IMG/VR virus record: IMGVR_UViG_3300024346_000010
Strand: one strand, 5' to 3'
Length of the DNA stretch: 64,000 nucleotides
Source: a virus
The position numbers and the translations under genes were made by a program. Each line of letters starts with the position of its first letter. Position 1 is the stretch's first letter. Of the stretch, positions 5,537 to 6,432 are shown in pieces. The notes under the pieces were generated by a model. The model made no database searches. It had not been told where the DNA came from and was given only the letters and a program-made list of their open reading frames with translations.

Positions 5537-5604
5537 TTTAAAAGTCACAGTATTAAAACTATAATATAGGGGTTTACTTAATCCATCCTTTATGTTAATA
5601 TATA

Positions 5605-5995
5605 ACCTGTAAACGTTGAAGCAACGTGGACACATTCTGGACCTGGGGGCGGTACCCAGCGACTCCACCATAAGGATACACAATGAAACAATATTCAAAA
5701 GAATATTTAGAGTTTGAACTGAAACACACTAAAGAGTTGGTAGAACTTCATCATAACACAAGAGATGAAGAATTGAGACTTCAAATTTTAGAAGTTAGAA
5801 AAACTCTTGAGCGTATCTTTTTGATGGGGTCGAAATTAGGATCGACAGGTGTGAAAGTGAAAGTGGAGTTTACCGGATGACTGCGTTATTGGTCAATTAA
5901 ACTAAATGCAAATGAAAATTTCGCACCTACAGGTTACGCCCTAGCGGCATAATGCTGGTGGGTATGAGCACCACCTAGAAACAGAACGGACTCGC
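5605..5995 (+). ncRNA. ssrA: circularly permuted (two-piece) tmRNA, alphaproteobacterial type
   Basis: Acceptor piece ends CTGGG-GGCGGTA-CCCAG-CGACTCC-A-CCA at 5670; coding piece starts GGGGTCG at 5826 (7-bp acceptor stem with G3:U70); tag ANENFAPTGYALAA* at 5908-5952. Outer ends approximate. Confidence 0.93.
5683..5880 (+). CDS. small ORF starting in the tmRNA intervening segment and running into the tmRNA 5' end
   Basis: SD AAGGA at 5672, ATG at 5683, 65 codons. Confidence 0.55.
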   Translation: MKQYSKEYLEFELKHTKELVELHHNTRDEELRLQILEVRKTLERIFLMGSKLGSTGVKVKVEFTG

Positions 5996-6022
5996 AACAA
6001 CTTTAATTTTATAGGACTAAAA

Positions 6023-6358
6023 ATGAAAAATATTCTCTTGGCAACAGCCGCAACATTCGCTCTTACAACTTCTGCATTTGCAGCTGATCTAGGCTATGCC
6101 GGTGACGTTGAATATGATATTGAAACAGAAACAGCTGCACTTGAATTTGGACCAGCACTTTCAATGGCCGGTTTCCTAGTTGAACCAAAAATGCACGCAG
6201 GTGCTACATTTACAGACGGCGCAACAGTAAACTTTACTGGTGTATCTGCAAAAGCAACATACGGCGTAACTGCTAATGTTTCTGTATATGGTACAGTATC
6301 AGCTGACAAAGACTTTAAATACGACACAGCAACAGTTGGTGTTGGCTTTAACTTCTAA
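6023..6358 (+). CDS. small outer-membrane beta-barrel/porin-like protein
   Basis: Signal peptide (AFA), alternating beta-strand pattern, C-terminal VGVGFNF resembling a BAM beta-signal. Confidence 0.7.
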   Translation: MKNILLATAATFALTTSAFAADLGYAGDVEYDIETETAALEFGPALSMAGFLVEPKMHAGATFTDGATVNFTGVSAKATYGVTANVSVYGTVSADKDFKYDTATVGVGFNF

Positions 6359-6401
6359 TAACTGCCTTTGGCACAGGGATAGGCTATACGCCATCCGAAT
6401 T

Positions 6402-6432
6402 AAAAGAGCGTCCTTGTGGCGCTCTTTTTTTA
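6402..6432 (+). terminator. intrinsic terminator
   Basis: AAAGAGCGTC-CTTGT-GGCGCTCTTT followed by T-run. Confidence 0.8.

What the first reader, a model, noticed from the sequence alone, without database searches (positions are those of the whole stretch)
5671..5880. ORF in the tmRNA intervening segment becomes a non-stop mRNA when the tmRNA matures
Seen: the 155-nt spacer between CCA (5670) and the 5' G (5826) starts with AAGGATACACAATG, the SD/start style used by this phage's early genes. The 65-codon ORF has no stop until 5878, inside the tmRNA. The SD-containing AAGGATAC (5672-79) can pair with GTATCTTT (5813-20), closing the spacer as a stem. Inference: RNase P cleavage at 5826 would leave a 47-codon stop-less mRNA, itself a tmRNA substrate, while translation of the precursor would unfold the acceptor stem. 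This suggests feedback between translation, tmRNA maturation and tagging.
Basis: partly seen in the sequence, partly recalled or inferred. Interest (0 to 1): 0.78.

Follow-up and report, generated by a model that had tools for sequence, protein, structure and literature searches.

The report
Small protein gene inside phage tmRNA spacer
The stretch of RNA that is cut out when this marine phage's two-piece ribosome-rescue RNA (tmRNA) matures carries a real, selected gene for a 46-residue two-helix protein that borrows its stop codon from the mature tmRNA, so one transcript has to serve as both messenger and stable-RNA precursor.

Summary
The window holds a permuted two-piece tmRNA: CCA ends at 5670, the 5' G is at 5826, and the spacer is 155 nt. 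An AAGGA-N6-ATG ORF (5683-5880, 65 codons) has its stop inside the mature tmRNA, and the SD lies in an 8-bp stem that closes the spacer.

The ORF is a real gene.
- Homologues at 41-100% identity keep a 46-47-residue core.
- dN/dS is about 0.13 in this frame only, and 15 of 24 variable sites are third codon positions.
- AlphaFold gives a confident helical hairpin (pLDDT 93).

Every copy I examined lies inside or within about 190 nt of a phage tmRNA gene. The spacer behaves as an exchangeable cassette: it is 99% identical between tmRNA genes whose flanks are only 62-68% identical.

ORFs in phage tmRNA spacers are common. 15 of 33 long spacers carry one, against 2.5 expected from shuffles.

Most family members share this layout. 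Some do not. One carries its own stop inside the spacer, two lie outside the spacer, and one sits in a unit with no RNase P site. The non-stop state is therefore not required, and the proposed feedback remains untested.

I found no paper that describes this. This scan has already reported the same phenomenon on other DNA (132 findings in at least 108 genomes).

The parts
5537..5565 (+). promoter-like site TTTAAA-17-TATAAT, about 45 nt upstream of the tmRNA acceptor piece
   Evidence: Consensus scan only. Relatives carry TTGACA-N17-TATAAAT at the equivalent place.
5609..5670 (+). tmRNA acceptor (tRNA-like 3') piece. It holds the T arm, the acceptor 3' strand CGACTCC (5660-5666), the discriminator A and the encoded CCA (5668-5670).
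   Evidence: Rfam RF04321 and RF01849 alignments; ARAGORN
5671..5825 (+). intervening segment (IVS), 155 nt, 29% G+C. It is absent from mature tmRNA and is an exchangeable cassette.
   Evidence: It is 99% identical to the IVS of L137/L139, while the flanks are 62-68% identical.
5672..5679 (+). 5' arm of the closing stem (AAGGATAC). It contains the SD AAGGA, 6 nt before the ATG.
5683..5823 (+). conserved 47-codon core of the small protein (MKQYSKEY...LERIFL). The predicted fold is a helical hairpin with helices 6-26 and 29-46.
   Evidence: dN/dS about 0.13; homologues; AlphaFold pLDDT 93.1
5813..5820 (+). 3' arm of the closing stem (GTATCTTT). It also encodes residues R44-I45-F46.
5824..5880 (+). 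non-conserved 18-codon tail of the ORF plus the TGA stop. It is read from the mature tmRNA 5' region. The predicted RNase P cut lies between 5825 and 5826.
   Evidence: The tail differs in every backbone.
5826..5996 (+). tmRNA coding piece. The acceptor 5' strand GGGGTCG is 5826-5832. The tag reading frame is 5908-5952 (ANENFAPTGYALAA*).
6023..6358 (+). downstream 111-aa gene with a signal peptide and a C-terminal Phe. It may be co-transcribed, and a hairpin followed by a T run comes after it at about 6398-6428.
   Evidence: ORF list and sequence. Co-transcription is inferred only.

Best explanation
The spacer of this phage's two-piece tmRNA gene holds a genuine small-protein gene. The selected product is a helical hairpin of about 46 residues. 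The residues after position 47 are simply whatever the neighbouring tmRNA sequence happens to encode.

Proposed course of events:
1. The gene is transcribed from the tmRNA promoter as part of the pre-tmRNA.
2. Ribosomes load at AAGGA-N6-AUG while the 3' arm of the closing stem, 130 nt downstream, has not yet been made (inferred).
3. They translate across the RNase P site and stop at UGA 5878 inside the tmRNA body. Complete translation is therefore possible only on uncleaved precursor.
4. When no ribosome is on the RNA, the acceptor stem and closing stem form.
5. RNase P and 3' trimming release the two tmRNA pieces. The spacer is freed as a hairpin with its SD paired and no stop codon (inferred).
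6. Any ribosome caught on the freed spacer would need rescue.

The spacer is an exchangeable cassette. It moves between tmRNA genes by recombination in the conserved flanks.

This protein family is always found in or beside phage tmRNA genes. I take that as a hint, not proof, that it either acts on trans-translation or depends on the tmRNA promoter for early, strong expression. Its biochemical function is unknown.
For: Coding selection:
- Across four diverged copies (window, L124, L135, L136), pairwise dN/dS is 0.03-0.30, mostly 0.13, in the ORF frame. In the other two frames it is 0.4-4.5.
- 24 variable sites split 5/4/15 by codon position, binomial p = 0.003.

Family:
- Close homologues: P0001-P0014.
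- An exhaustive phmmer search adds 9 more cluster representatives at 41-65% identity.
- The alignment has 14 invariant core columns and unrelated tails.

Fold: AlphaFold2 on 14 sequences gives pLDDT 93.1 and two helices.

Linkage to tmRNA. Every context I examined is in or next to a tmRNA gene:
- inside the IVS of intact tmRNAs with five different alpha-type backbones (window, L124/L150, L135, L136, L137/L139);
- inside the IVS of a different tmRNA type with tags ANDQVYALAA, ANDELYAVAA and ANDELFALAA (L142-L144, L153/L154);
- inside the IVS of L147;
- immediately 3' of a tmRNA (L145);
- 190 nt 3' of a tmRNA (L146);
- in tmRNA-derived pseudo-units just upstream of a tmRNA (L123, L129, L132).
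Sources.

Cassette behaviour:
- Window versus L137: IVS 99% identical, acceptor piece 68%, coding piece 62%.
- L123 versus L137: acceptor piece 100%, coding piece 98%, IVS unrelated.
- L123 matches the window only over 5660-5851, at 98.4%, within 6 kb.

Generality:
- 15 of 33 unique viral IVSs of at least 90 nt carry an ATG ORF that starts within 30 nt of CCA and spans the IVS.
- The antisense control gives 1. Dinucleotide shuffles give 2.45 +/- 1.35, with a maximum of 6 in 300.
- A second, unrelated IVS ORF (L072/L082) also shows third-position bias, 1/3/10.
- A third (L101) is 49% identical, E 3e-20, to a free-standing phage ORF.

The SD matches this phage's usual style. The window's exact 65-aa form is on 95 contigs of up to 147.6 kb.
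Against: - There is no expression, ribosome-occupancy or RNA-end data.
- The SD is sequestered in the closing stem of the folded RNA, so translation needs a kinetic window that I only infer.
- Function is unknown. Pfam, PHROGs, the ESM Atlas and Foldseek against the PDB give nothing significant.
- The cultured relatives DSS3P8, DSS3_MAL1 and MD18 have shorter spacers without this ORF. No cultured phage in the collection encodes the family.
- Part of the DNA conservation, especially the near-invariant last 16 codons, could reflect RNA structure as well as coding.
Confidence: 0.8

Rival explanations
1. This is the first reader's model: a regulatory circuit in which translation of the spacer ORF competes with RNase P maturation. 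The cleaved spacer is a built-in non-stop mRNA. Its rescue by tmRNA tags the peptide, so peptide level, tmRNA maturation and tagging feed back on one another.
For: - The geometry is right. The predicted cut at 5825/5826 removes the stop, and the ORF reads through the acceptor 5' strand.
- In all family members that sit in an intact tmRNA except L147, the stop lies inside the mature tmRNA. This holds in two different reading frames at the junction, ATG GGG and GAT GGG, across 41-100% identity.
- In L146 the stop TAG shares its G with base 1 of a tRNA-Met, which is another RNase P site.
- The SD lies inside the closing stem in the window's subfamily.
Against: - Family members exist with their own stops or without any RNase P junction: L147, L145 and L129, the last of these on 50 contigs.
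- The tail after residue 47 is not conserved. The window's +52 stop follows from a backbone variant (AAATTAGG) that is also present in ORF-less relatives L125-L127.
- About half of the unrelated IVS ORF families stop before the cleavage site, at -4, -12, -15, -17 or -18.
- A simpler cause exists for the missing stop. The conserved C-terminal helix is encoded by the closing-stem 3' arm, which lies 5 nt from the junction, so the first available stops are those of the tmRNA itself.
Confidence: 0.17
2. The ORF is selfish or neutral cargo. In this model the spacer is merely a safe, highly transcribed slot from which any insert is cleanly removed. Small genes of no relation to trans-translation accumulate and are swapped there, as small ORFs do between phage tRNA genes. 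The protein's function would then have nothing to do with tmRNA.
For: - Spacer ORFs from different phages are unrelated to each other. They include membrane peptides (L008, L048, L074), a weak NUMOD1-like peptide (L072, E 0.02) and a homologue of a free-standing gene (L101).
- Spacers are swapped between backbones.
- Other spacers hold a tRNA-like gene instead.
Against: This particular family stays with tmRNA genes across 41-100% identity, two tmRNA types and four different placements (inside, after, before, in pseudo-units). That is more persistent than expected for random cargo. The cargo model is compatible with my best explanation for everything except the protein's role.
Confidence: 0.35
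3. The ORF is a chance open frame in an AT-rich structured spacer, and what is conserved is RNA structure only.
For: - The spacer folds better than shuffles (z = -3.05).
- A spanning ORF arises in 1.4% of shuffles.
- The last 16 codons are nearly invariant at the DNA level.
Against: - dN/dS of about 0.13 is seen in this frame only, together with third-position bias.
- The protein core is conserved down to 41% identity where the DNA is no longer alignable.
- The gene is kept in contexts where the closing stem and junction are lost (L129, L145, L146).
- The predicted fold is confident.
- ORFs are enriched about 6-fold over shuffles across spacers.
Confidence: 0.03

Closest known systems
Circularly permuted two-piece tmRNA genes: Caulobacter and other Alphaproteobacteria (Keiler, Shapiro and Williams 2000, cited in PMC9004378; Rfam RF01849, RF04321), and phage-encoded two-piece tmRNAs such as OM43 phage Melnitz (PMC9004378)
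   Same: The gene order is the same: acceptor piece, CCA, intervening segment, coding piece. The acceptor stem has G3-U70, and there is a T arm and a tag ending in ALAA. Both Rfam scores are well above gathering.
   Different: In the papers I could read, the intervening segment is treated as discarded, non-coding RNA. Here it holds a selected protein gene whose stop codon lies in the mature RNA.
Unusual contents of tmRNA intervening sequences listed in the 2025 tmRNA database paper (PMC11915505): one intact tRNA-Ala gene and one repetitive element
   Same: Extra functional or mobile sequence is lodged in the IVS of a permuted tmRNA. I also see a tRNA-like gene in IVS-type cassettes of L123, L129 and L132.
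   Different: That paper reports no protein-coding IVS. Here the content is an ORF, and such ORFs are frequent in phage IVSs (15 of 33).
Group I introns with homing-endonuclease ORFs in the T loop of tmRNA genes (PMC11915505)
   Same: A protein gene sits inside a part of the tmRNA gene that is removed from the mature RNA. The insert is mobile between tmRNA genes.
   Different: Removal here is by tRNA-type end processing, not self-splicing. The product is a 46-residue helical hairpin with no nuclease domain. The reading frame runs out of the removed segment into the mature RNA.
Dual-function RNAs that are both regulatory or stable RNA and mRNA (SgrS/SgrT, RNAIII/hld), and the tRNA-punctuation layout of animal mitochondrial transcripts in which RNase P/Z cleavage leaves mRNAs without a complete stop (my own knowledge, not checked here)
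   Same: One transcript has both a coding and a non-coding job. Processing at a tRNA-like structure defines the mRNA 3' end and removes or truncates the stop codon. L146 even has TA|G at a tRNA 5' end.
   Different: There is no evidence here that a stop is rebuilt by polyadenylation. After cleavage the window's RNA would end ...UUGAU. The non-coding partner is itself the rescue RNA for non-stop messages.

Membership tests
Permuted (two-piece) tmRNA, Rfam RF04321 / RF01849 | Covariance-model score above the curated gathering threshold over the full model | tested here: met
   RF04321 scores 97.8 bits against a gathering score of 47, over model positions 1-213. RF01849 scores 93.4 bits against 50, over positions 1-355.
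Permuted (two-piece) tmRNA, Rfam RF04321 / RF01849 | Permuted order with an encoded CCA before the 5' acceptor strand, and a 7-bp acceptor stem with the G3-U70 alanine identity pair | tested here: met
   CGACTCC-A-CCA is at 5660-5670 and GGGGTCG at 5826-5832. G3 pairs with U.
Permuted (two-piece) tmRNA, Rfam RF04321 / RF01849 | Tag reading frame with a GCA resume codon and a hydrophobic ...ALAA end | tested here: met
   ANENFAPTGYALAA* at 5908-5952
Permuted (two-piece) tmRNA, Rfam RF04321 / RF01849 | Precursor actually cleaved into two base-paired pieces, with the spacer lost | not testable with these tools
Cleavage is inferred from the family.
Bona fide protein-coding gene | Purifying selection at the protein level in this frame only | tested here: met
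   dN/dS is 0.03-0.30 in this frame and 0.4-4.5 in the other frames. Variable sites split 5/4/15 by codon position.
Bona fide protein-coding gene | Homologues beyond alignable DNA, with a conserved core | tested here: met
   9 representatives at 41-65% identity and 14 invariant columns
Bona fide protein-coding gene | Ribosome-binding site and start codon typical of the genome | tested here: met
   AAGGA-N6-ATG, the commonest SD form in the window. Distant homologues lack a clear SD, and one uses TTG.
Bona fide protein-coding gene | Detected translation product | not testable with these tools
   no proteomic or Ribo-seq data
Non-stop mRNA / natural tmRNA substrate | An mRNA 3' end upstream of any in-frame stop is produced in vivo, and the product is tagged | not testable with these tools
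   Only the geometry is shown: the predicted cut at 5825/5826 lies before the stop at 5878.
Non-stop mRNA / natural tmRNA substrate | The stop-less layout is conserved in all homologues, if it is the selected function | tested here: not met
   L147, L145 and L129 have stops that do not depend on an RNase P site.
Homing-endonuclease or intron-type mobile insert | Nuclease domain or self-splicing intron structure | tested here: not met
   No Pfam or PHROG nuclease hit. The product is a 47-residue helical hairpin. There is no intron family hit in Rfam.

The most novel reading that the evidence does not exclude
The helical-hairpin protein is a dedicated phage accessory factor of trans-translation, and it is made only from unprocessed pre-tmRNA. 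Its stop codon sits behind the RNase P site, so the ratio of full-length protein to mature tmRNA is set by a race between ribosomes and RNase P on each transcript. Spacers that are cleaved first become stop-less messages. Their product is tagged by the very tmRNA they were cut from. The result would be a self-contained timing or dosage circuit built into a stable-RNA gene.
Probability: 0.12. Interest if true: 0.9.

Novelty: new variant of a known kind. Interest (0 to 1): 0.7.

Why it matters
In the papers I could read, the intervening segment of two-piece tmRNA genes is treated as throw-away RNA. This case matters for four reasons.

1. In phages the segment is often a slot for small protein genes. 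One such family has stayed with tmRNA genes through deep divergence. This changes how these loci should be annotated, because gene callers and tmRNA finders each see only half of the locus.

2. It adds a clear natural example of a transcript that is both a stable-RNA precursor and an mRNA.

3. It offers a compact test system of about 480 bp for the competition between translation and RNase P processing.

4. A protein gene that is always beside a phage tmRNA is a reasonable lead to an unknown viral modulator of ribosome rescue.

The cassette exchange also shows a way for phages to shuffle small genes by using conserved RNA-gene flanks as recombination handles.

Tried and rejected
- The whole genome is not held for this window.
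- Pfam and PHROGs on the window ORF gave nothing below E 0.08.
- ESM Atlas feature search: best score 0.77, not informative.
- Foldseek against the PDB with the pLDDT-93 model: no match with E <= 0.001, only generic helical hairpins.
- Complex prediction of the 47-residue core with Ruegeria pomeroyi SmpB (SSRP_RUEPO, a stand-in host): verdict 'no answer', score 0.00. This is not evidence either way.
- tblastn of the core, and of the L142 form, against 50,697 cultured phage genomes: no match at E <= 1. No cultured phage is therefore available as a system.
- blastn of the tmRNA region against cultured phages found only short matches to the tmRNAs of DSS3P8, MD18 and DSS3_MAL1. Their spacers (98-106 nt) lack the ORF. 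The 39-codon frame in DSS3P8 starts at the A of CCA, has no SD and is Arg-rich, so I treat it as chance.
- The metagenome-contig scan with the family alignment added only two new loci (L153, L154). Both are the same arrangement as L142.
- P0007, P0009 and P0015, listed as cluster members, are unrelated long proteins. I treat them as clustering artefacts and ignored them.
- L075's spacer gives a weak hit to the family (36% over 53 residues) in an open frame without an ATG. It may be a degenerate relative. I did not pursue it.
- I considered that the tandem pseudo-units of L123, L129 and L132 are assembly chimeras. I rejected this because the L129-type protein form is on 50 contigs from many samples and the L132 type on 39.

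Full report
**What is in the window.**
ARAGORN and Rfam agree on a circularly permuted, alphaproteobacterial-type tmRNA. RF04321 scores 97.8 bits and RF01849 scores 93.4 bits. The acceptor piece ends with CGACTCC-A-CCA at 5660-5670. The coding piece begins with GGGGTCG at 5826, and G3 pairs with U. The tag frame at 5908-5952 reads ANENFAPTGYALAA*. The 155 nt between them (5671-5825) is the intervening segment (IVS).

The window is a 38-40% G+C phage with 16 tRNA genes. Its ribonucleotide reductase is 57-60% identical to those of the roughly 147-kb Rhodobacterales siphophages DSS3P8, DSS3_MAL1, MD18 and RcXuper. No whole genome is held for it. The exact 65-residue ORF product is on 95 metagenomic contigs, the longest 147,597 nt.

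**The observation.**
- AAGGATACACAATG starts at 5672, and the ATG is at 5683.
- The frame stays open for 65 codons to TGA at 5878-5880.
- AAGGATAC (5672-5679) pairs with GTATCTTT (5813-5820). This stem is in the MFE and centroid folds of the spacer (z = -3.05) and of the precursor.
- AAGGA placed 6-9 nt before the ATG is the commonest ribosome-binding form in this phage.
- Codon 48 straddles the predicted RNase P site.
- A spanning ORF of this kind arises in 1.4% of dinucleotide shuffles of the spacer.

**The ORF is a gene.**
A word-indexed search and an exhaustive phmmer search found the same 46-47-residue core in many metagenomic proteins. Identity runs from 100% down to 41%. There are 14 invariant columns, and the C-terminal tails are unrelated.

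Among four diverged DNA copies, pairwise dN/dS is 0.03-0.30 in the ORF frame and 0.4-4.5 in the other two frames. Variable sites split 5/4/15 by codon position, p = 0.003.

AlphaFold2 on the 14-sequence alignment gives a helical hairpin with pLDDT 93. It has no significant structural or family match.

**Where the family lives.**
Every copy I could place lies in or beside a phage tmRNA gene.
- It fills the IVS of intact two-piece tmRNAs with five different alpha-type backbones. These are the window, L124/L150 (tag ANTNAAPKALALAA), L135, L136 and L137/L139 (tag ANANKAPEMALAA).
- It fills the IVS of a quite different tmRNA type in L142-L144 and L153/L154 (tags ANDQVYALAA, ANDELYAVAA, ANDELFALAA).
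- In L147 it sits in a 226-nt IVS with its own stop. A second, Cys-rich ORF follows it and reads through the junction.
- In L145 it starts right after the 3' end of a tmRNA.
- In L146 it lies 190 nt after a tmRNA, and its TAG stop overlaps base 1 of a tRNA-Met.
- In L123, L129 and L132 it lies in tmRNA-derived pseudo-units just upstream of the real tmRNA.

The pseudo-units consist of a promoter, a leader and CGACTCCACCA without a T arm. Cassettes inside them are separated by GGGGTCG-N-CGACTCCACCA.
Sources.

**The spacer is a cassette.**
- Window versus L137: the IVS is 99% identical, but the acceptor piece is 68% and the coding piece 62% identical.
- L123 versus L137: the acceptor piece (100%) and coding piece (98%) are the same, but the IVSs are unrelated.
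- Within 6 kb, L123 matches the window only over 5660-5851, at 98.4%.

Spacers are therefore exchanged between tmRNA genes. I infer that this happens by recombination in the conserved acceptor-stem and D-loop-like flanks.

**The stop codon.**
The C-terminal helix (LERIF) is encoded by the 3' arm of the closing stem, 5 nt from the junction. In most family members the frame runs on as ATG GGG NNN AAA TAG and ends at the conserved TAG at +10, giving 51 residues. Alternatively it runs on as GAT GGG and ends further inside the tmRNA.

The window's tmRNA lineage has AAATTAGG instead of AAATAGG. ORF-less relatives L125-L127 share this variant. The TAG is therefore missing and the frame continues to +52. 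The 18-residue tail is thus an accident of this combination of cassette and backbone.

However, L147, L145 and L129 show that the protein is also kept with ordinary stops. Unrelated IVS ORFs in other phages often stop before the cleavage site, at -4 (the TGA of TTGAT), -12, -15, -17 or -18. The non-stop state is therefore a frequent consequence of squeezing a gene into the spacer. It is not demonstrably the selected function.

**Generality.**
A pattern for the acceptor T arm plus CCA retrieved 119 viral stretches. Among 33 unique IVSs of at least 90 nt, 15 have an ATG within 30 nt of CCA that opens a frame of at least 20 codons spanning the IVS. The antisense strand gives 1, and dinucleotide shuffles give 2.45 +/- 1.35, with a maximum of 6 in 300.

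The peptides are mutually unrelated. They include membrane peptides, a weak NUMOD1-like peptide and others.

Two further cases carry independent coding evidence.
- L072/L082 differ at 14 sites, split 1/3/10 by codon position.
- The L101 product is 49% identical (E 3e-20) to a free-standing ORF in L123.

**How it most likely works.**
Shown:
- a selected small-protein gene nested in the IVS;
- its stop codon inside the mature RNA;
- the SD inside the closing stem;
- cassette exchange between tmRNA genes;
- strict linkage of the family to tmRNA genes.

Inferred:
- transcription from the tmRNA promoter;
- ribosome loading before the closing stem can form;
- full translation only on uncleaved precursor;
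- release of a closed, stop-less spacer hairpin after RNase P and 3' processing;
- rescue and tagging of any product made from the cleaved spacer.

Unknown: what the protein does. An SmpB-binding test by complex prediction gave no answer.

**Literature and earlier scan notes.**
The 2025 tmRNA database paper mentions only a tRNA-Ala gene and a repetitive element inside IVSs, plus homing-endonuclease ORFs inside group I introns of tmRNA (PMC11915505). The Melnitz paper surveys phage two-piece tmRNAs without mentioning IVS ORFs (PMC9004378). Searches for permuted tmRNA together with open reading frame found nothing else.

This scan's own notes already report the same phenomenon on other DNA, with 132 findings in at least 108 genomes and several follow-ups. 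My enrichment test and the cassette comparison reproduce that conclusion independently on a different phage group.

**Verdict.**
This is a new variant of a known kind of gene, a two-piece tmRNA with a protein-coding, exchangeable spacer. The specific additions here are a spacer-gene family that is always tmRNA-linked and that borrows its stop codon from the mature tmRNA.

Noticed in passing
L001 903-1366; L002 713-1146; L003 746-1213: GOLLD RNA (RF02032, 150-170 bits) lies directly upstream of the two-piece tmRNA in the cultured relatives DSS3_MAL1, DSS3P8 and MD18. In DSS3_MAL1 (L001) and MD18 (L003) a tRNA-Arg is embedded in it; none is called in DSS3P8 (L002). The window has no GOLLD hit at gathering score.
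   Followed up: no
L123 2881-2963; L129 2381-2463; L132 2105-2187; L149 216-298: A tRNA-like gene occupies an IVS-type cassette flanked by CGACTCCACCA and GGGGTCG. Rfam tRNA scores 44 bits. ARAGORN calls it 'tRNA-???', with an oversized anticodon loop and a long variable arm. It may be an unusual or frameshift-type tRNA.
   Followed up: no
L123 2800-3240; L129 2300-2700; L132 2330-2700: Tandem tmRNA-derived pseudo-units lie upstream of the real tmRNA. Each has a promoter, a leader and CGACTCCACCA without a T arm. Cassettes are separated by GGGGTCG-N-CGACTCCACCA. The arrangement recurs on dozens of contigs, so it is an array-like store of spacer cassettes.
   Followed up: partly
L147 1114-1440: A 226-nt IVS holds two ORFs. 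The first is the helical-hairpin family member with its own stop. The second is a Cys-rich (CCGKC) ORF that reads through the RNase P junction into the tmRNA.
   Followed up: no
L146 723-911 and 911-986: A family member sits between a tmRNA and a tRNA-Met. The G of its TAG stop is base 1 of the tRNA, so RNase P cleavage would leave ...UA, as in mitochondrial tRNA punctuation.
   Followed up: no
L147 1114; L018 7118; L101 13718; L121 IVS: Several IVS ORFs start only 3-7 nt after the CCA and have no SD. If 3' trimming of the acceptor piece creates the mRNA 5' end, these would be near-leaderless messages.
   Followed up: no
window 6023-6358; L123 1981-2760: A gene for a protein with a signal peptide and a C-terminal Phe (outer-membrane-protein-like) directly follows the tmRNA in the window (111 aa). 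An analogous 259-aa gene directly precedes the tmRNA in L123, L129 and L137.
   Followed up: no
L139 858-880: In L139 the imported cassette is followed by GGGGCCG, while the acceptor 3' strand is CAGCTCC. This gives a C-A mismatch in the acceptor stem and may be a scar of spacer exchange.
   Followed up: no
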